Shown: positions 14,400-58,875 of the stretch, in pieces
How positions within the stretch are numbered: position 1 is the stretch's first letter
Layout of the letters: the number at the start of each line of letters is the position of its first letter
From: Octopus sinensis
Taxonomy: Eukaryota
Assembly (NCBI RefSeq): GCF_006345805.1
Contig: NC_043001.1
Span: forward strand, 92,690,001 to 92,754,000
DNA length: 64,000 nt
Reading direction: 5' to 3'
Position numbers and translations under genes: made by a program
The notes under the pieces: generated by a model
Told to the model about the DNA's origin: nothing
Database searches by the model: none
What the model saw: the letters and a program-made list of their open reading frames with translations, nothing else

Positions 14400-14585
14400 C
14401 TAGATTATAGAATAAAGCATAACTGTCATACCACAAACACACACATTAGGGATGGTTAAGATACATATACAATATTTTCATCTATTAACCCATCTGTCTG
14501 TAAAAAAAATACAGATCGGTTGATAGCAATACTTCTAACATCAAAATGCAATTGTTTAACTTGGTTTGGAATAAAAATGACTTAC

Positions 14586-14764
14586 CAAGTGTTCTTGCTA
14601 GTACTCGGTCACTGTACAAGCCATTGCCCATAATATTACGAGACAAAACCATGAACTCATAAAGTGTGTCAGCTTCTAAACTGTAGACAATAAATGATGT
14701 TTTGTCACCAGGGGGCACTCGGATTGTCTGCCAATTGGATTCTAAGGCATCTGTGTTTCGAAAC
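14586..14764 (-). CDS. tutl: turtle/IGSF9-like exon, C-half of FN3 domain
   Basis: Acceptor tttcctattAG, donor G|GTAAGT. 179 nt, phase 2 to 1. (W)FRNTDALESNWQTIRVPPGDKTSFIVYSLEADTLYEFMVLSRNIMGNGLYSDRVLARTL has the FN3 L-x-x-x-T-x-Y-E-F-x-V-x-x-x-N-x-x-G motif. Confidence 0.93.
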
Positions 14765-17421
14765 CTAATAGGAAATTGAAATGGAAAAACTATAAGAAGA
14801 AATATTTAAAAAAAATTTTTAAGTAGATTTTTAAAAAACAAAGACAATAAAACAATATAAAAGAATAGTGAAAAAAAAGAAAAAATATAAGAAAAACAAA
14901 ATAATAAGCAAATAAGGACATAATAAATTAGAAAATAAAGGAGGCAAAACAAGTAAGAGAAGAAAGAAGAAAGAGAATTACCATGATTAAGTAAATCTTA
15001 TTTGTGTATGTACAAAAAGATATGATAGTAAATTGATTGGAAGAGATCAACTCAAAGTTAAGAACAACATAAGATCAAGGTATGATAATGTAAGGAAGCA
15101 GTTACAAAATTTATACAGAATCTTTTCTAGAAATATAATTCCACAGGTATATCTTGTAATATTAGAGAGACATTAACCACAAAATTGTCATTTCAGTGTG
15201 GATAAAGAAAGCTGTAACTGGTTAAGTTGTCAGATTGTTAGCCAAAGCATCAACAAGTTGTACTTCTATCACTGATACTGCAATGTGTTTGTGACACCTA
15301 ATTTTCAATAGTTTAAGCCACCTGTCTCTAAACAGGTGCAGAAGAGTTTCTGGTAAACAATGGGGATATTACATAACTGACAAGTATTTAATTACATTGC
15401 AGTACTTTGTTGGAATTGTCTCATATGCAAAACTTCTAACAGACAAGCATTTCCATCTGTTGAGAAAATTAACAAGTACTTGATACTGTAAAAAGCTGGA
15501 ATAAGCCTCAGCCAATATCACCTATAATGCAGGGCATTTTTCAAAGGCCAGTGACATACAAGACTCTAAAGTGGAAGATCCTTCTCAAATTAGATTAGAC
15601 TAAGTTGGCTTCAGTATACAAGACATAAAACTGCTCATCTACACTGTAATATACTCTAAAGGAATGAACTCATAATGCTTTTAATTCAGATACTTTTTAT
15701 TGATGTAGATCTAGTTCTAGATTTACCAATACTTTTGAGTAATACATGTTAACAAAAGATGTCTGGTGTATAAACAGACTATCATATGTCTTTTAATATC
15801 CAGAATTGACAAACAACTATCAATAACATAATGTTTAAATTTTTACATATAGTGTTACAGAGGTTAGTTCTTATACTGTAGATTGATGGGTTATACACAA
15901 AAATAAATGGTTCTTTGAGAAAATAAATTTTAGGATTAGTGGTATGGAAACAATCAATTCATTTATTTACAGCTTTACAATTTGTAACTAATAGAGAGTG
16001 GAAATTTTGATGGAATTCAGAAAACAGTAAGGCATTTCAGGATTGTTGCCAGACATATATTTACTGCTAGCACTGGACTGTCATCATATCCAGAATTTCC
16101 AGTTATTATACTACCTCAGATCAATGGTGGTAAAAAGACAAAATTAGTAACATGCATAACCCTTGTAGCATATACCATACCAAAATAATTAGTTTGGAGT
16201 CTATTGAAGTTGACTTTGTGTCTATAATTCTAAGGTCAATGAACTAAACATCAAACATCTACTGAGAAATTTAATGAACTCTTTTCTTCCTTCATTATGT
16301 TGTTATCTTTCCTTAATGTAAAAAAATCATTGTTACAATCCAGATTAAGTTGAACATAACAACTGGTTTTGTAAATGAAATGAAAAAGATCACATTCTGA
16401 TATATTTTATAACACACAGAATATGCTTTAATTCATTTTTAATATTGTTGCTATTTTTGTAATGTTTGCCTGTCCATCGGATGATTAAAACTTCCATTGT
16501 TAGTTTTATTTGAAACTACTGTTATGTATCCTGTTGTTCTTACCACTATGTCAGTGAAAATCAAAATAAAATACTTAAAGCAACAGTCGTCAAATACAAA
16601 ATCCAAAGAACTGTTAATTGTTTAAATTTCACTTGCAATATTCACTTTGGAGATAAAACAGTGTTCAGTCAGGCGTATAGGTGTCATCATGAGGTATGCT
16701 TGAGAGCAAAAAGTTTAAGGTTATTTATGATGTCCAATTCCACTTGAAGTTGTATATATGTTGTGTTAAGATTCATTATCAATCAATTATCCTTATTGAG
16801 AAGAAACAGTCAAAAGTAATCACCACATACAATCACCAAGCATCTCCACTACTTAACACTCTTCACCTTTACAGCTGACATGAAAAACTACGAGGAAAAG
16901 GCAGCCATTTTAATTAAGCAAAAAAGAGAGAAAAATTGATTGCTATTTTAACGTGTAAAATTTTGGGGTTAATAATCTTTAGTTACAGTTTCTCATTCAA
17001 GCTACATAATAGGCAGAATTGTCAGATTCTTTGTAATACATTCTCCATAAGATTTTACAGCTGCATAAAATTAATCGACCAAGCTGAACAGATCAACATT
17101 ATTAGATCAGTTTTTTTAAAATCACAATTCAGTCACTTCTATTCAATAATTTTACTGCTTATAAATTACTGACATGTTTCATTCCAAGTCTTTCATTTTG
17201 AGTTATGTCATTGAAACAGCCTTAAGTTTTAGTAGTCCATTTGACAAGTTCACAGTGCACTGCCAAATAAGTAAAATAGCAAATGCTTCTTTCATCAAAA
17301 GATCGCATTCACCCTAACCAAAAGTAACAACCCCATACAATCACCAAACATCTCCACAACTTAAGTTAACCCTCTTCACCTATACAAATGGACAGGGGGA
17401 CGTTTGCTAGTACATATATAA

Positions 17422-17460
<39 letters not shown>

Positions 17461-17599
17461 TATATATACATACATATATATATTTATATGTATATATATT
17501 TTATATTTTTATTTCAACTTTCATTCTCTTATTTCCCTCTATATTCCTTATCTCCTCCTTTTCTATAATAATTCCTTATTTCGAACTCAAACATTTACC

Positions 17600-17647
17600 G
17601 TCTCTGATGAAGGGATATCCGTAATATCCCAGAAACAGCTGTAAGAC
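17600..17647 (+). ncRNA. minimal type I hammerhead ribozyme motif, copy 1
   Basis: GTCT-CTGATGA-A-GGGATAT-ccgta-ATATCCC-A-GAAAC-AGCT-GTA-AGAC: stem I GTCT/AGAC, 7-bp stem II, palindromic stem III ACAGCTGT, GUA triplet. Confidence 0.68.
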
Positions 17648-17825
17648 TATATATCTATAACTTTTTCCTTATAAATGTCCTGAAAACTCCTGTTAGCCTT
17701 GGGTTTGTTATCCCATTTTGTCTAATATATATATAAATATATATATACAAGTAACATCCTTGTTACTTGCATGAATTTTGCTACCCTGGTAACTGTTTAT
17801 TGAATTTTCCATGTTAACGGTAAAC

Positions 17826-17884
<59 letters not shown>

Positions 17885-18026
17885 TCATATATATACATAC
17901 ATATATATATTTATATGTATATATATTTTATATTTTTATTTCAACTTTCATTCTCTTATTTCCCTCTATATTCCTTATCTCCTCCTTTTCTATAATAATT
18001 CCTTATTTCGAACTCAAACATTTACC

Positions 18027-18074
18027 GTCTCTGATGAAGGGATATCCGTAATATCCCAGAAACAGCTGTAAGAC
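18027..18074 (+). ncRNA. minimal type I hammerhead ribozyme motif, copy 2
   Basis: Identical to 17600-17647, 427 nt downstream. Confidence 0.68.
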
Positions 18075-18254
18075 TATATATCTATAACTTTTTCCTTATA
18101 AATGTCCTGAAAACTCCTGTTAGCCTTGGGTTTGTTATCCCATTTTGTCTAATATATATATAAATATATATATATACAAGTAACATCCTTGTTACTTGCA
18201 TGAATTTTGCTACCCTGGTAACTGTTTATTGAATTTTCCATGTTAACGGTAAAC

Positions 18255-18313
<59 letters not shown>

Positions 18314-18364
18314 TATATATATATATCATATATATATATATATGCATGCATATATATGCACATA

Positions 18365-35496: not shown

Positions 35497-35950
35497 CTGT
35501 TAATAGAAATAGGTAGAAAAGAACCATAGTCTGTCATTTTTTAATGTTTTTTAATGAGTAATGCTACATACCTAATTTCTTTATTTTGTTTCATATATTT
35601 AAATATTAAGGTATTTAATTTATTTATTAGTCTTTATCATTGTGCCTACTGAGTTACAATGCCTAAGTGGTTAGGGTATGGACTATGACTACATGGAATT
35701 AAGCTCAAATCTACATATATTCCCTAGGTAGAGTAAATAATTCTTGCATCAGTCAGTCTGGATGACTAAAAGGTACCTCTTTTACTTCTCTATTAAGTGA
35801 TTAAGAAAGAAAAAATAACAAGTAGAAAAAATAATAGTAAATCACTCCAACAAATATAAAATTTGCAAAAAACTTTCCATTTATGCTATCCATGAGCATA
35901 TGGATGACAAAGTGAACAAAATGAAAAAATATAAAAAAAAGCATACATAC

Positions 35951-36104
35951 TTTCAATGAGCAGTTTTGTACCAATAACAATACTAGTGATTTGGTTTGTT
36001 GCTACACATTCATAATCGCCATGGTCTGCTTTTTCAAGAAGATAGATGGTCAGGTTCCCTTTATTTTGAGAAGCTCGACTTTCCCAATCAATTTCACCAT
36101 CAAC
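35951..36104 (-). CDS. tutl: turtle/IGSF9-like exon, C-half of the Ig domain (not in the ORF track)
   Basis: Acceptor ttttctAG, donor GAAA|GTATGT. 154 nt, phase 0 to 1. VDGEIDWESRASQNKGNLTIYLLEKADHGDYECVATNQITSIVIGTKLLIE contains the D-x-G-x-Y-x-C Ig motif and continues the frame of 43143-43258. Confidence 0.92.
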
Positions 36105-42409: not shown

Positions 42410-43142
42410 GTATATAATTAGAGAAAAAACCTCTATTAAACAATTCAATAATGAAATATGTTATTCACACCATATAGAAAACATACTATAAAAACCTTAA
42501 TCTAAAAATCAATAAAGTACAATAAATAGTAAATAGTAGTAAAGTACTATTTACTATATATATATATATATATATTTATATATTGTGTACATGAGTAAAT
42601 GCTTTCAGGAATATTTGATGATCCATTAACTTGACTGATGAGATGAGTATATGTTGCCTTTACATTACATTGATTTAAAACATTTTCTGACACCTATACT
42701 TAGTGAGAAGCCGTATTATGATTACCAGGAAATATCTAGATAGCAATAATGCTGCTTCTCCCTACAAGAAATGTTTGGTAACAATAGATGCTATTCTGTC
42801 ATTGACTCATCAAGAGAACTTGCAAAACAAGGGATAACTATGGCTACCTTAGCTGAGCCTTTAAGTATCACATTCACATTTTATGCATAGTTGCAGACAA
42901 TTTTTTCCATATTCAGCTTCAGGCAAGTGTATGTGTTTGCATTTACATATATATGCATGTACATGTAAATGTGTATATCAGTCTTTTATTTTCACTCCTC
43001 CCTCATCTTTACTACGAAAGGGGTAAGTAATAGCTGGAAATGTTATCTGTAATACGTAATTTTTATTGGAATGTAATATTATAATTAGGAAACATGCTTT
43101 TCTTTAAAGCAAATATTTTATATAGTTATAAGATATACAAAC

Positions 43143-43258
43143 CTTCCGCCATGTGATTTCTGGTTTTGGTGTTCCTTCAGCATCACATGGTATAGTTATT
43201 GAGTTGCCTGCCACCGACTGGTATATCGGCTTTGGACGGATTGTGAAGTATGGTGGAT
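43143..43258 (-). CDS. tutl: turtle/IGSF9-like adhesion molecule, exon encoding N-half of Ig domain (Ig5-equivalent)
   Basis: Acceptor ctacccttctAG, donor AAG|GTTTGT. 116 nt, phase 1 to 0. Translates (x)PPYFTIRPKPIYQSVAGNSITIPCDAEGTPKPEITWRK with the Ig B-strand Cys and C-strand Trp; resembles Drosophila Turtle PPAFTVEPETLYQRKVGDSVEMHCDA (recalled). Confidence 0.9.
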
Positions 43259-44331
43259 CTAGAAGGGTAGAATTCAATGGAAATAAAAGCAGGTATATGT
43301 TAATCAGAAAAGGTTTGATAGGAAGAAAAAAAAAAAAGGAGGTAAAAAAACAGCCATCACCATTCCAGCAAAGCACACTCTTGTGTGTGTTTACCTGCCT
43401 GTTTATTCATGTTATTATGCACAATGTGTAACCTTTTGATTTGATATTCTTTTTAAAGAATTGTTACAATAAAAATCCTTTATACAGAATCATACAGCAG
43501 CTTTGATAAATTTAAAGAGGTGATAGTGACCTAGAAGGGAAAAAGAAAAACAATGGAAGGAATGAAATAAGAGAGGAAAATTGAAATGAGGGTAATGGAG
43601 AGAATTCTGAAATTCTGGAGAAAGAAAAATTATGCAAAACCATCTGAAAATCTTTGACAAGATATATATTTGTTTGATGAAGTAGCTACAGTAGGAAGAA
43701 AGGGTGGAAACTTAGACTGGAAATGAAACTTGGTTCCTATGAATGCGTATCAAATACGTCTTAATAAGTCAATATATATACATATAAATGTTCTTCTGTG
43801 AGAGAAATACTTAGACCATGTATATGTATAGATATGGCAGATCCATGTACATCACCTAAGTACACAGAAAATTGATGTTAATATTTTTAAGACACTTTCT
43901 CATTATATTTAGGTGAATATTAAATAACAGTGTATACATGAATTTGTACATTACTCACATGCATCCCATGTTTCATTTGTATGTGTTAATATGTACATAA
44001 ATATATACAAATATATATATGATTTATTACATGTTTATAATGATTTGTTGAATATAGCAGAATGCATTCACTTAATTTTAAAAAAAACAACTTTTGTAGC
44101 TGCATGGTTGTGGCCATTTAAAGACTTTTCACATGAATAAATCTGCCCACAGGTTGTTGGAGCAAATCATTTTATTAACAATGTATCATTCCCAATATCA
44201 ACTACTTGAAAAGTACTCTTCCTATATCTAGGAAGGTATCTTGGCTGTCACAGATATTAAAAGAATTTTATATTGAACATCCATGATAAAACAGAGGAAA
44301 GAACAGGAAAACTTACACAAACGCACATACA

Positions 44332-54419: not shown

Positions 54420-57400
54420 GTTGCTTGAAATTTTCATATGATGTAAAATAATAGTGGTGATGACAATGGTAATGAATGTTACCTTACCTCAGTTTATGAG
54501 AGACAGGAGTTACAGAAAAACTCTGGTTGAAACAGCAAAAATTAAGCTGGGACTTTAAGGGAAGGCCTCTCATTTGGCAATGGTTCAGTAAAGATGCAGA
54601 CTGACCACAGCTGTTATGCTAATACAGTAACAGCAAACAATAAAGCAAGGAGGAGAAAGTGGACCAGCAAAGAAAACAGGATAGTGGTTCAGTGCTACTT
54701 AGAAAGTGAACCTTCTTTGATGTTAACACTTTGGGTAGAGAAGGGTATGTTTAAAGTGACTGAGCAGAGATTAGCTGATCAAGCTAATACTATTAGGAGA
54801 AGAAAGTGGATGACAGAATTGGGGGTAGAAGAGATCACAAGACAACTGGAAAAGAAAGACCAAGCAGTGGGAAAGACAAATAACAGCTCAAACCAAAGAA
54901 GAACCTAAAGGAAAAAATAATAATAGCACTACCAATAAGAAAAGGACAACTGGCACCAAAGTGATTTAAGTGAGGAAGATCAGAAGATTTTAGATGAGTT
55001 GCAGGAAGTAATAAGTAAAGAAGGAAGGGAAAGACTGCCAGCATTAAAAGGTACCAACAGAAGGAAGCTGCCAGAAATGACTAGGAAAATAGATTCTATT
55101 ATCGGTAGGGTAGATACTAAAAATATAGGAGACACTAACTTATTGATCTATGCAAGATTAGATACGTCGTTGGAAAAGATTTAAAAAGAGCAAATATGGA
55201 AAAGAAGACTACAAAATAAAGTGAAGACTTCTAAGACAAGATCTGAGTAGAAAAGAAGCCTGGAAAACAAACAAGTTAGGAAACACAAGATACAGATCTT
55301 GCCTCGAGGAAAGATGATACTTAGTCACAGAGAAAGGATTTGGAACAGTAATAGAAGAGTTGAAACTGCATATCATAGCAGTAGCAGGCAAGCTCTCCAG
55401 ATATCAGAAAAGAATAGATCAATATCAACAGAATAGATTGTTTGAGACAGACCAGAGATTTTATAACCAAATAAACAGAGGAGAACAAAGTACTCAAGAT
55501 GAGAAACCTAATGCAGAAGAAGCTAGAAAGTTCTGGAGTAATATTTGGGATAAGCCAGTCAATCATAGTGGAGATGCAGTATGGTTAAAGAAAGCAAAGG
55601 AAGAAATAGTGAGTGGAAGCAGCCAGATCTGAGATTAACTAGTACATTAATGAGTGAAGTGTAGGAAAAAATGCCAAAATGCCAAATTGGAAGGGCCCAG
55701 GACCAGAGTTAGTTCAAGGGTATCAACTAAAGAAATTCAGTAGTTTACATGAGAGGCTGAGGGAACAACTTCAGGAATACTTTAATGGAGGAATAATACC
55801 AGTTTGGATGACTAGCTAGCAACAATAGACCAATCACTTGCTTACCATTAGTGTGGAAGCTGTTAACAGGAAAGCATTTACAAGCACCTTCACAACCAGA
55901 ATTTACTACAAGAACAGAAAGGTTGCAGGAAGAAGGCTAGAGGAATGCATGATCTATTATATATAGACAAAGCAGTTCTAAATGAAGTAAAAGCTAGAAA
56001 GTATAATGTAAAAATAGCATGGATAGATTATAGGAAAGTCTATGACACGATTCCACACTCATGGATAAATGAATGTTTGCGTATATTAAGTATAGCAGAC
56101 AAAATAAGAGTATCAATTAGCTGTAATATAAAGAAACAGAAAGTAGATCTCTATTCAGGTGACACACTTTTATGGAAAGTTAATATCAAAGGAGGAATTT
56201 TCCAGGGGGACTCATTGCTCCCTTTAATATTTGTCTTATGTTTGATCCCCTTCAGTTTAGTATTAAGGAAGGCAAAGGCAGGGTATCAGTTCAGAAATAG
56301 TAACGGCAACATTAACCATTTGCTCTACATGGATGATCTGAAACTTTTTAGTAAGAACTAGATTTATTACTCAGCGTTGCTTGGTGGAGTATTCATGGAA
56401 TTGTTTGCCAGTTTGTAGAATGGGAATTCATGGTACTTATGCATGTATATATATTTAACCTAACTTCTGGACTTATTTAATTGGAACTGAATGACGTGTT
56501 TTTGTTTTTCTTTCTTAGAAAGTTACAAAATGTCAACATTCGTACCGGAAGTTGACTCATTTAATGTCAGAATAGGATTTACAGAAAAAATAAGGGCTTA
56601 AATCTAATCAAAAGTAAGAGAAATTATGCCAAATACAACTAAATTGAAAACGTTTTACCCCTGGCCATATTGGCAATTCTGAAAACTTCTGTGTGCGAAT
56701 TTTTACATGGGTAGAAGCCTTTTTTTAACAATTTTTATCCTGGAAATCACCTGTGACTTTTGTTTTAAAGTGAAAGAGAGGAGCAAATGAAAGATGTATG
56801 AACGTGTATATGAAATGGACATGTGTGTGTGTGTGTTACAGTGAGAGAGAAAGAGAGAGAGTGCCACTTACAAATACATGAGAACACACATGTTCATTCA
56901 CAAACTCTCTCTCTCTCTTTCACACACATTCATGTCCATTTCATATACACATACATACACCTTTCACTTTAAAACAAAAGTAAATAAATAAAATATTTTT
57001 ACGGAAATTAATGAACTCCAGATGATGAAATCACATTGTTAAAAATATTTTTAAATGATTAAAATATTGTGTATGTCAAAAGTCAACTATTTCTGAGATT
57101 AAGTGTGTGTATATGTCATAGATAGTAGACCCGTGTTCATGTTGATTGAACGCCATGACATTCATTATATGTGTGCGTATTCTGCATGTGTTGACATCAA
57201 GGAAACCATATTTTTATTGTCAAGAAATAACAAACAAAAATTGTGTTTAATCATTTAAATAGAGGTCCAAATATCACAAAACTTTGTACTGTACTGCCGA
57301 AGGTATGAAAATAAATATGCAAAAACAATCAAGATAAAATATACTATTTCTGAGATATTTTGGGGAACACACAAACATCTTTAGAGTTTTAGTATTACTG

Positions 57401-58875
57401 AGATGAAAAAGAGATAGATTACTTAATAGAAACTGTAAGACTCTTCATTAAAGATATGGATATGAAACTTGGCATACACAAGTGTGCAATATTAGTCAGT
57501 AGAAGGGGACAGGTAGTCAACAGCAAAGGCATCCAACTACCAGATGGCCAGGAGAGAGTTATAAGTATCTAGGAGTATTAGAATCTGACAGAGTACTAAC
57601 AACATAAAGGAAAACAAAAATTAAAAAGGAGTACATCAGAAAAGTGAGAAAACTCATGAAGTCAAAGCTAAATGGTCTGAATCTAGTGAAGGCTATAAAT
57701 ACTTGGGCAATATCGTTACTTTGATATTCAGCAGCTTTTGTAGATTGGACAAAAACTGAATTAGCAAAGCTAGAAAGAAGAACTAGGAAGGAATTCAGCA
57801 TGAATGGAGGACTCCACCCAAGAGCAGGAGTAGCATAATCATACTTACCTAGAAAGGGAAGGCGGAAGAGGGTTAATATCAGTAGAAGACTGTGTGGAGT
57901 TAGCTAGAGTAGATATAGACTACTATGTAGGTAATAGTGAATAATGTTTATTAAAAGCTGCCAGAGTCACAGCAAGACATAGGGAAACCAAAAACCCAAA
58001 CAAAGTTAAAAACCAGAAAAAAGAACCAAAATTATCCGACTGGCAGAGGAAGGCGTTGCATGGTAGATTCCCAAAGATAGTTGCAGCAAATAGTAGTAGT
58101 GAGATATGGTTGCAGAAAGGAAAGCTGAAGAGGGACACAAAAAGCTTGTTAGTAGCTGCACAAAATCAAGCATTAAGGGCTAATTCAGTAAAAGTGAAGA
58201 TAGACAAAAACAAAGTAGATTCCCAATATAGATTACACAAATCAAAAGAGGAAAGCTTTACTCATATAGTAAGTGAATGTAGCATGCTGGCACAAAAAGA
58301 ATGCAAAAAAAAAATACATGACAATCTAGGGAGAGCAATCCACTGGGAGCCAAATAGAAAACTAAGATTTGAACATACTGATATATGGTATGAACATGAA
58401 CCTATTAAAGTACTAGAAAGTAAGGAATACAAGATGTTGTGGGACTTTAACATTCAGACTGACAGAGTAATAGAAGCTAGAAGGCCTGATTTGGTAGTAG
58501 TAGATTAAAAGAATGGAAAGTACCAGATAATTGACTTTACAGTCCCAAATGATGAAAAAATCAATGAGAGGTATAGAAAAAATAGCTAAGTACCAGGACC
58601 TAGCAACTTACAGAGACTATAGAAAGTGTGGGTAAAATATACTCCAGTAGCTATATGTGCATTGGGAACTATCCCTAAAGATATGAGCAGATGGATAGAG
58701 GAAATGGACATAAAGCCCAGTTCAGTACAGCTTCAGAAAACAGTATTATTAGGGACAGCTGGGATACTTAGGAAGATTCTTGGCATCTAAGGCTACTTGT
58801 GGTAGCCCGATATTAGGATTCTTTTCCAACAGTCTAATCTGTTGAGTGTATATGAAAATAATAATAATTATAATA
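54420..58875 (+). mobile_element. Dong/R4-clade LINE (RT + CCHC + restriction-like endonuclease), degenerate, interrupted by a Helitron
   Basis: EQRLADQ, AWIDYRKVYDTIPHSW, GIFQGDSLLPL, HLLYMDDLKL, YKYLG, HGRF, HIVSEC..H, LWDFNIQTDRVIEARRPDLVVV, KYQDL, ALGTIPK; ends in (TAA)n, as expected for Dong-type targets. Confidence 0.93.
56358..57403 (-). mobile_element. non-autonomous Helitron (1046 bp)
   Basis: Minus strand begins A|TCTCAGTAATACT and ends with a degenerate hairpin ccaagcaacgctgag then taataaatCTAG|T. No TSD. Removing it restores the LINE frame KLFSKN-EKEIDYLIETVRLF. Confidence 0.88.

What the first reader, a model, noticed from the sequence alone, without database searches (positions are those of the whole stretch)
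17411..18256. Tandem dimer of minimal hammerhead ribozymes: retrozyme-like unit in an intron of a neural adhesion gene
Seen: two essentially identical ~427-bp units, each containing GTCT-CUGAUGA-A-GGGAUAU(ccgua)AUAUCCC-A-GAAAC-AGCU-GUA^AGAC. This is type I hammerhead topology with predicted cleavage after 17643 and 18070. Stem III is the palindrome ACAGCUGU, too short to be a stable hairpin but able to pair between the two copies. Known: Penelope-like elements and metazoan non-LTR retrozymes carry minimal hammerheads with palindromic stem III that work as dimers, and tandem copies release monomeric or circular RNAs. Inference: a + strand transcript, antisense to turtle, could self-process into a 427-nt RNA. 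Caveats: the A and A flanking stem II replace the usual purine-pyrimidine closing pair, and the duplication could be an assembly artefact.
Basis: partly seen in the sequence, partly recalled or inferred. Interest (0 to 1): 0.75.

Follow-up and report, generated by a model that had tools for sequence, protein, structure and literature searches.

The report
Duplicated transposon fragment carrying minimal hammerhead motif
Two near-identical 427-bp units each hold the tail of a very common transposon that carries a small hammerhead-ribozyme-like motif, so this is most likely an ordinary local duplication of transposon debris and not a dedicated circular-RNA element.

Summary
Window 17414-18344 is a 427-bp tandem repeat of 2.2 copies. 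Each unit carries GTCT-CTGATGA-A-GGGATAT(ccgta)ATATCCC-A-GAAAC-AGCT-GTA-AGAC, at 17600-17647 and 18027-18074.

The retrozyme reading is not supported. Each unit is a composite:
- (TA)n microsatellite;
- the 3'-terminal ~270 bp of a 5'-truncated copy of a non-coding ~1.2-kb interspersed family (A), with 3452 first-look candidates and 1686 motif matches genome-wide;
- a 73-nt internal piece of an unrelated repeat (B).

No other locus holds this composite, and both duplication ends lie in (TA)n. The likeliest origin is microsatellite-mediated segmental duplication. An assembly duplicate is not excluded.

The motif itself is credible as a Penelope-like-element (PLE) type minimal hammerhead:
- helix I is 4 bp and helix II 7 bp;
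- there is an extra nucleotide after A9;
- helix III is palindromic;
- the predicted dimer is a double hammerhead.

Family A also behaves like a PLE: 5' truncation, head-to-head inverted pairs and (TA)n flanks. PLEs with RT and GIY-YIG are abundant in this genome.

Points against: no Rfam hammerhead model hits the motif. A second unpaired nucleotide lies between helix II and GAAA. No cleavage or RNA evidence exists. The motif is antisense to the host Ig/fn3 gene.

The parts
17411..17499 (.). TA-rich microsatellite 1; holds the left end of the duplication
17480..17749 (+). Copy 1 of family A. This is the 3'-terminal ~270 bp of a ~1.2-kb non-coding interspersed element. It is 5'-truncated and ends in a (TA)n run. 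The start is approximate: homology begins at 17477-17509, mostly 17486-17499, depending on the copy compared.
17600..17647 (+). Hammerhead-like motif 1. Helix I is 17600-03 with 17644-47. CUGAUGA is 17604-10. Helix II is 17612-18 with 17624-30. GAAA is 17632-35. The palindrome ACAGCUGU is 17635-42. Cleavage is predicted after 17643.
17754..17826 (+). 73-nt internal fragment of an unrelated, young, abundant repeat (family B). It lacks family B's own hammerhead-like motif.
17829..17926 (.). TA microsatellite 2, between the two units
17907..18178 (+). Copy 2 of the family A fragment. It has the same 5' truncation point as copy 1 and 2 extra bases in its TA tail.
18027..18074 (+). Hammerhead-like motif 2, identical to motif 1. 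Cleavage is predicted after 18070.
18183..18255 (+). Second copy of the 73-nt family B fragment
18256..18344 (.). TA microsatellite 3; holds the right end of the duplication and runs into CA/TA repeats

Best explanation
The tandem pair is a duplicated segment bounded by (TA)n microsatellites, most likely made by unequal exchange or replication slippage between those tracts. Each unit holds three things: TA repeat, the 5'-truncated 3' tail of an abundant non-coding retroelement family (A), and a 73-nt scrap of another repeat (B).

Family A behaves like a non-autonomous element mobilised by Penelope-like elements (inferred). Its 3' region carries a PLE-type minimal type-I hammerhead motif.

A single motif is predicted not to fold into the active shape. 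Two motifs are predicted to pair through ACAGCUGU into a double hammerhead. That structure would cut after 17643 and 18070 and release a 427-nt RNA. This needs + strand transcription, which is antisense to the host gene and was not shown. It also needs this variant core to be active, which is untested.

Shown here: the repeat anatomy, the family membership, the copy numbers and the predicted folds. Inferred: the duplication mechanism, the PLE dependence and any cleavage.
For: Anatomy of the unit:
- The query 17500-17825 gave 3452 first-look candidates. Of the 45 matches listed (40 candidates scored), only the two window copies cover the whole query. The 43 other matches cover only parts of it, nearly all ending near position 248 and the longest reaching 276, most at 77-86% identity.
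- Other copies extend further 5' to varying lengths, from about 250 to 1240 bp.
- Three copies begin at the same point about 1.2 kb from the 3' end.
- No long non-repetitive reading frame was found.
- Copies end in (TA)n.
- Window 17754-17826 matches another repeat at 96-100% identity, with 1108 first-look candidates. In 4 loci examined that repeat continues on both sides where the window does not.
- Both window copies share one truncation point and identical flanks. The duplication therefore post-dates insertion.

The motif:
- CTGATGA-N16-28-GAAACAGCTGT has 1686 genome matches against 1 for the reversed control.
- The exact 33-mer with one N has 245 matches against 0.
- The cofold dimer at -33.5 kcal/mol is the double hammerhead, against -24.6 for two monomers. 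The monomer's minimum-energy fold is not the hammerhead.

Link to PLEs:
- Among the first 100 listed family A motif hits I count 7 inverted pairs (6 head-to-head) and 2 direct pairs within 2 kb.
- A GIY-YIG search gave 5029 first-look candidates. Of 150 scored, 147 pass the cut-off.
- A 781-aa ORF has RVT_1 plus a C-terminal GIY-YIG domain.
- A second motif family (D) has the same architecture but different helices. It has 1836 matches against 0 for the control. It shows a compensatory GGCU/AGCC to GGCC/GGCC change and, by my count, 27 head-to-head pairs in the first 100 listed.
- In L099 family D motifs flank an ORF that aligns to the PLE reverse transcriptase (E 6e-4).
Against: - No Rfam hammerhead model reports the motif. 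This holds at gathering score, at E<=10 over 1.1 kb and at E<=10 over 81 nt.
- An unpaired nucleotide also sits between helix II and G12. It is A, G or U in different subfamilies. It is absent from the published min-hammerhead rows that I could read.
- No sequence similarity links family A to the 25 PLE loci examined, apart from a 56-nt hammerhead module in L096.
- Evidence for selection on the motif is modest. Equal 60-nt queries gave 1612 first-look candidates for the motif, against 514 and 719 for the flanks.
- Between the A/A and U/U subfamilies, 6 of 48 motif columns differ. That is about the rate in the flanks, although 0 of the 14 helix II positions differ. The copies were chosen by the core pattern, which biases this count.
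- No read or contig spans the repeat, so the duplication is not independently confirmed.
Confidence: 0.72

Rival explanations
1. This is a genuine non-LTR retrozyme dimer. The 427-bp unit is a mobile element that is transcribed, self-cleaved by the paired hammerheads, circularised and copied back as tandem units.
For: - Two same-strand motifs lie 427 bp apart, within the 150-450 bp monomer range given for metazoan retrozymes.
- A double hammerhead is predicted.
- A few other same-strand pairs exist in the family, with spacings of 295, 948 and 1383 bp.
Against: - The unit is a composite of two unrelated repeats plus microsatellite, and it is unique among the best genome hits.
- Family A is dispersed, mostly as single or inverted copies.
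- The motif is the minimal PLE kind, not the canonical type I with loop-loop contacts that the retrozyme paper describes.
- The repeat ends lie in (TA)n.
- The family A piece keeps only the element's 3' tail, so any promoter in the missing 5' part is absent (inference).
Confidence: 0.06
2. The duplication is an assembly artefact. The genome holds one unit, and a long TA tract misled the assembler.
For: - The non-microsatellite parts of the two units are identical.
- TA tracts flank and separate the units.
- Craig et al. 2021 note that complex PLE insertions often cause assembly problems (passage).
- No contig spans the region in 4 runs.
Against: - The units differ in the length of two TA runs, as two real copies or two error-prone reads would.
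- Other loci in the same assembly show older, diverged tandem pairs of the family (94.6% identity in L034). Such duplications therefore do occur.
Confidence: 0.15
3. The motif is not, or is no longer, a ribozyme. It is a hammerhead look-alike carried passively by the family, inactive because of the extra nucleotides flanking helix II and the 4-bp helix I.
For: - No Rfam hit.
- The position next to A9 is not the usual G10.1-C11.1 pair.
- The paper on PLE min-hammerheads reports low activity in vitro even for dimers.
- The window copy has lost about 18 nt just upstream of helix I relative to other copies.
Against: - At least six motif families in 360 kb of sampled loci keep the core while helices I and II differ and pair. 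Their helix III octamers are palindromic: ACAGCUGU, ACAUAUGU, ACGAUCGU and ACAAUUGU.
- Family D shows a compensatory helix II change.
- A U-U mismatch at the base of stem II is known in active natural hammerheads (passages).
Confidence: 0.25

Closest known systems
Minimal hammerheads (min-HHR) in the pseudo-LTRs of metazoan Penelope-like elements (Cervera & de la Pena 2014, PMC4209133)
   Same: - Type I topology with a complete core.
- Helix II of 7 bp and helix I of 4 bp.
- An extra nucleotide after A9.
- A G-C pair opening helix II.
- A palindromic helix III that suits dimers.
- Thousands of dispersed copies.
- Close inverted pairs.
- A position near the element's 3' end.
   Different: - A second unpaired nucleotide lies between helix II and G12, forming a 1x1 loop (A/A here; A/G, U/U and A/U in sister subfamilies).
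- Family A has no ORF.
- No sequence link to an autonomous PLE was found among the 25 PLE loci examined.
Metazoan non-LTR retrozymes (Cervera & de la Pena 2020, PMC7229834; Li, Clavereau & Pollet 2026 preprint, abstract only)
   Same: - Same-strand hammerheads a few hundred bp apart.
- Low GC content.
- The potential to release a unit-length RNA.
- A proposed descent from PLE pseudo-LTRs.
   Different: - The unit here is a one-off composite of two repeats and microsatellite.
- There are two copies only.
- The motif is minimal, not canonical.
- No RNA evidence exists.
- The preprint's abstract reports retrozymes as excluded from introns, whereas this pair sits in one.
Double hammerhead of newt and axolotl satellite transcripts (as cited in PMC4209133 and PMC7229834)
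   Same: A weak helix III with a palindromic loop. The single motif is poor and two motifs pair into an extended helix III.
   Different: Those are satellite arrays of canonical hammerheads with loop 1-loop 2 contacts and shown cleavage. Here only the fold is predicted.
Natural hammerheads with a U10.1-U11.1 mismatch (Perreault et al. 2011, PMC3088659; axolotl HHR_Amex2, PMC7229834)
   Same: A non-Watson-Crick pair at the base of stem II. One sister subfamily here has U/U, with 171 matches.
   Different: The window copy has A/A. Activity of A/A, A/G or A/C at this place was not found in what I read.

Membership tests
Hammerhead ribozyme, type I | Conserved core C3 U4 G5 A6 N7 G8 A9 ... G12 A13 A14 ... 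A15.1-U16.1, H17 | tested here: met
   Read directly from the sequence. My descriptor scan finds both sites.
Hammerhead ribozyme, type I | Three helices around the core, with helix I open and helices II and III closed by loops | tested here: met
   Helix I is 4 bp, helix II is 7 bp, and helix III is 2 bp alone or 8 bp in the dimer.
Hammerhead ribozyme, type I | Helix II abuts the core with a G10.1-C11.1 pair | tested here: inconclusive
   A G-C pair is present but is set off from the core by one nucleotide on each side (A and A). The 5' nucleotide is known in PLE min-hammerheads; the 3' one was not seen.
Hammerhead ribozyme, type I | Match to the Rfam hammerhead covariance models | tested here: not met
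   No hammerhead family is reported at gathering score or at E<=10 on 1.1 kb and 81 nt. None is reported at gathering score in 14 related loci either, including other hammerhead-like families. The models may simply miss this minimal kind.
Hammerhead ribozyme, type I | Site-specific self-cleavage | not testable with these tools
   No raw RNA reads were available; only contigs were laid.
PLE-type minimal hammerhead | [quoted passage not shown] | tested here: met
   All four features are read from the sequence against the paper's list.
Non-LTR retrozyme | The tandem monomer is itself the repeated family unit, found in arrays at several loci | tested here: not met
   Only the two window copies cover the whole 326-nt query. 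The unit contains a fragment of an unrelated repeat.
Non-LTR retrozyme | Unit-length linear and circular RNAs | not testable with these tools
   No run with raw RNA reads of this organism was offered.
Penelope-like element or its non-autonomous derivative | Variable 5' truncation, adjacent inverted 5'-truncated copies or partial tandems, insertion in microsatellites such as (TA)n, hammerhead near the 3' end | tested here: met
   - Truncation.
- Inverted pairs.
- (TA)n flanks.
- Motif about 105-150 nt from the 3' end.
- The features are those given in Craig et al. 2021 (passages).
Penelope-like element or its non-autonomous derivative | RT plus GIY-YIG ORF, or a 3' end shared with an element that has one | tested here: not met
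   Family A has no ORF. BLAST against 25 PLE loci found only a 56-nt motif match. Autonomous PLEs do exist in the genome.

The most novel reading that the evidence does not exclude
Several PLE-linked repeat families of this genome, with at least 3,500 motif copies, use a hammerhead in which a 1x1 internal loop (A/A, A/G, U/U or A/C) separates the catalytic core from helix II. If these cleave, natural hammerheads tolerate an inserted nucleotide between C11.1 and G12. The duplicated copy in this intron could then shed a 427-nt antisense RNA.
Probability: 0.3. Interest if true: 0.5.

Novelty: new member of a known kind. Interest (0 to 1): 0.25.

Why it matters
By itself the locus is ordinary: a duplicated scrap of a transposon inside an intron.

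What may interest ribozyme and transposon specialists is the genome around it. It holds thousands of PLE-type minimal hammerhead motifs in at least six families whose helices covary. Two large families share an unusual extra nucleotide on both sides of helix II.

A cleavage test of that variant would show whether the hammerhead core tolerates an insertion next to G12. It would also show whether these motifs are working ribozymes or passengers.

Tried and rejected
- **Rfam.** Besides the absence of hammerhead hits, the E-value scans gave only microRNA-family hits on TA/CA repeats and a 14-bit SECIS_1 hit on the motif. I read both as low-complexity or chance resemblance.
- **Sequencing runs.** Only assembled contigs were available. 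The TA tracts and the family B fragments had no cover. No record spans the stretch, so neither the dimer nor expression could be tested. Runs X17, X18 and X8 laid nothing. X14 is labelled RNA only by a guess and comes from another organism label. It gave 20 contigs, and most of those listed match only 17599-17649.
- **Depth profile.** The depth peak over the motif partly reflects a deletion in the window copy just upstream of the motif. I do not use it as proof of selection.
- **Subfamily comparison.** The copies were chosen by the core pattern, so the result is biased and weak.
- **Earlier notes of this scan.** None exist for this genome.
- **Literature.**
  - Lunse, Weinberg & Breaker 2017, on PLE hammerheads acting as dimers, is recalled from memory. 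It is not held in the library.
  - A search for hammerheads together with cephalopod terms returned nothing specific. I make no claim about the organism.
- **TRF on L035.** No row was returned because the 1383-bp period exceeds its limit. BLAST shows that tandem.
- **L099 ORFs.** They gave no Pfam hit at E<=0.01. The GIY-YIG-like alignment is not significant.
Full report
**The observation**

Window 17414-18344 is a tandem repeat of period 427, 2.2 copies. The two full units have 422 invariant columns of 430, and they differ only in TA runs.

Each unit carries GTCT-CTGATGA-A-GGGATAT-ccgta-ATATCCC-A-GAAAC-AGCT-GTA-AGAC, at 17600-17647 and 18027-18074 on the + strand.

A hammerhead descriptor of my own finds only these two sites in the window. 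It gives a mean of 0.05 hits in 100 Markov shuffles. The two sites are one sequence duplicated, so they count as one event.

**What the unit is made of**

The window lies at C5:92690001-92754000 of a 2.72-Gb assembly. A search with 17500-17825 gave 3452 first-look candidates.
- Of the 45 matches listed (40 candidates scored), only the two window copies cover the whole query.
- The 43 other matches cover only parts of it. Nearly all end near position 248 (window 17747) and the longest reaches 276. Most are 77-86% identical.
- Other copies reach further 5' by varying amounts, with total lengths of about 250 to 1240 bp.
- Three copies start at the same point about 1.2 kb from the 3' end.
- No long non-repetitive reading frame was found in that stretch.
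- Copies end in (TA)n.

I call this family A. The window holds its last ~270 bp, 5'-truncated.

The 79 bp after it looked unique but are not. Window 17754-17826 matches a second repeat, family B, at 96-100% identity, with 1108 first-look candidates. In 4 loci examined family B continues on both sides where the window copy stops. It is unrelated to family A.

Each 427-bp unit is therefore TA repeat, a family A tail and a family B scrap. Both units share the same truncation point and the same junctions. The array begins and ends inside (TA)n.

A composite like this was duplicated after its parts were in place. Unequal exchange or slippage between the TA tracts is the simplest cause, though this is inferred. 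An assembly duplicate cannot be excluded. The public runs offered only contigs, none spans the stretch, and the TA tracts have no cover.

**The motif as a hammerhead**

The core is complete and the topology is type I. Cervera & de la Pena 2014 (text parts 1-2; supplement part 1 and passages) describe the minimal hammerheads of metazoan Penelope-like elements (PLEs) as having:
- helix II of 7-8 bp;
- helix I of 4-5 bp;
- a conserved G10.1-C11.1 pair;
- palindromic positions 15.2-16.2 and loop 3.

They also report low activity in vitro and probable action as dimers. The window motif fits each structural point.

RNAcofold's minimum-energy homodimer of the 60-nt motif is the double hammerhead, with helix I in trans, two helix II hairpins and an 8-bp helix III. 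It scores -33.5 kcal/mol, against -24.6 for two monomers. The monomer's best fold (-12.3) is not the hammerhead fold (-8.8).

The unconstrained fold of a 531-nt tandem transcript contains helix III between 17635-42 and 18062-69 and both helix II hairpins. Of the trans helix I pairings it contains only 17600-03 with 18071-74. This completes only the site that would cut after 18070. These are predictions only.

**What speaks against the hammerhead reading**

- No Rfam hammerhead model reports the motif. This holds at gathering score, at E<=10 on 1.1 kb and at E<=10 on 81 nt.
- The models also reported nothing at gathering score in 14 loci that hold other hammerhead-like motifs. They may be blind to this minimal kind.
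- There is also an unpaired nucleotide between helix II and G12. I did not see this in the published alignment rows, although the text extraction drops one column.
- In sister subfamilies the flanking pair is A/A, A/G, U/U or A/U.
- A U-U mismatch at the base of stem II is known in active natural hammerheads (passages of Perreault 2011 and Cervera & de la Pena 2020). I found nothing on A/A.
- The window copy keeps only a 4-bp helix I. It has lost about 18 nt just upstream relative to other copies.

**Family-level evidence**

CTGATGA-N16-28-GAAACAGCTGT has 1686 matches, against 1 for the reversed control. These descend from one ancestor, so the number measures abundance, not independent support.

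Comparison between families is more telling. In 360 kb of sampled loci the descriptor finds at least six motif families. Their helices I and II differ yet still pair. Their helix III octamers are palindromes: ACAGCUGU, ACAUAUGU, ACGAUCGU and ACAAUUGU.

Family D has the same one-nucleotide flanks as family A. It has 1836 matches against 0 for the control. Its two subfamilies differ by a compensatory change, GGCU/AGCC versus GGCC/GGCC.

Direct evidence for constraint within family A is modest:
- Equal 60-nt queries gave 1612 first-look candidates for the motif, against 514 and 719 for the flanks.
- Between the A/A subfamily (12 copies) and the U/U subfamily (32 copies), helix II has no fixed difference in 14 positions.
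- The motif as a whole differs at 6 of 48 columns, about the rate in the flanks. The copies were picked by the core pattern, which biases this count.

**Link to PLEs**

Craig et al. 2021 (passages) list these PLE hallmarks:
- strong 5' truncation;
- partial tandems;
- an inverted 5'-truncated copy at the 5' end;
- insertion in microsatellites such as (TA)n;
- hammerheads in the pseudo-LTR near the 3' end.

Family A shows all of these. Among its first 100 listed motif hits I count 7 inverted pairs (6 head-to-head) and 2 direct pairs within 2 kb. Family D shows 27 head-to-head pairs within 5 kb in its first 100.

The genome is rich in PLEs. A GIY-YIG search gave 5029 first-look candidates, and 147 of the 150 scored pass the cut-off. 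A 781-aa ORF has RVT_1 followed by GIY-YIG, and its copies are 98-99% identical. In L099 two family D motifs flank a minus-strand ORF that aligns to that reverse transcriptase (26% identity over 167 aa, E 6e-4).

No sequence similarity ties family A itself to the 25 PLE loci I examined, apart from a 56-nt motif module in L096. Its dependence on PLEs is therefore inferred from anatomy.

**Context**

Minus-strand frames with weak Ig matches lie at 43107-43406 and 35889-36104. One with a weak fn3 match lies at 14488-14805. Together they bracket the repeat. It probably sits in an intron of an Ig/fn3 gene, with the motif antisense. Orthology to 'turtle' was not tested.

Gene transcripts would carry the inactive complement. 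The truncated element lacks its 5' part. A + strand RNA would therefore need read-through from elsewhere (inference).

**Verdict**

The sequence observation is confirmed. The hammerhead reading is credible as a PLE-type minimal motif, but cleavage is unproven. The retrozyme reading fails its main test, because the unit is a unique composite and not a family unit.

This is a new member of a known kind and is of low interest as a locus. The wider pattern of variant min-hammerhead families in this genome is the part worth a bench test.

Noticed in passing
window 17754-17826 and 18183-18255; L039-L042: Family B is a ~330-bp repeat with copies 96-100% identical to the window fragment and 1108 first-look candidates. 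It often sits beside an inverted copy of itself and ends in (TA)n. About 100 nt upstream of the part present in the window it has its own hammerhead-like motif: CUUUC-CUGAUGA-GAAGA...UCUUU-GAAAC-AUAU-GUC-GAAAG.
   Followed up: partly
L093 5537 (+), L007 2175 (-), L071 356 (-), L098-L100: Family D motif: GCGG-CUGAMGA-A-GGCY...RGCC-A/C-GAAAC-AUAU-GUA-CCGC. It has 1836 genome matches and a compensatory helix II change between subfamilies. Most copies lie in head-to-head pairs 0.1-4.8 kb apart. In L099 a pair flanks a divergent RT-like ORF.
   Followed up: partly
L093 1721-4063, L094, L097; L095, L096: [quoted passage not shown] Three copies are 98-99% identical over 3.4-4.0 kb, which suggests a recently active Penelope-like element. 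My pattern found no hammerhead inside the shared 4-kb unit.
   Followed up: partly
L093 6629 (+) and 1872 (-); L011 1341 and 2363; L029 100 (-): Further hammerhead-like families have a canonical G10.1-C11.1 pair and 4-7-bp helix I. Examples are GUUUUGG-CUGACGA-GCUA...UAGC-GAAAC-AAUU-GUC-CCAAAAU and UUUUAG-CUGAUGA-GUAC...GUAU-GAAAC-GAUC-GUA-CUAAAA. None reaches an Rfam gathering score.
   Followed up: partly
L035 4298-7450 (G000 C6 near 97.58 Mb): A 1383-bp unit is repeated 2.5 times at 99% identity. It holds a family A relative with the motif plus another young 382-bp repeat. This is a second composite tandem with same-strand motifs.
   Followed up: partly
L034 4600-5230 (G000 C1 near 9.31 Mb): Two family A copies lie 295 bp apart. 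Both end 6 nt after the predicted cleavage site and are followed by (ATGT)n. The pair is an older, diverged duplication (94.6% identity).
   Followed up: no
window 55867-56358 (+): A frame with an RVT_1 match (E 1.9e-9). Neighbouring + strand frames at 54546-58505 suggest a decayed retroelement elsewhere in the window.
   Followed up: no
window 43107-43406 (-), 35889-36104 (-), 14488-14805 (-): Exon-like frames with weak Ig_3/I-set and fn3 matches, consistent with an Ig/fn3 adhesion gene on the minus strand. Its identity was not tested.
   Followed up: partly
window 17600-17647: The motif gives a weak SECIS_1 alignment (14.2 bits, E 1.9). The likely reason is that AUGA...GA flanking a hairpin mimics the SECIS core. 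I read it as chance.
   Followed up: no
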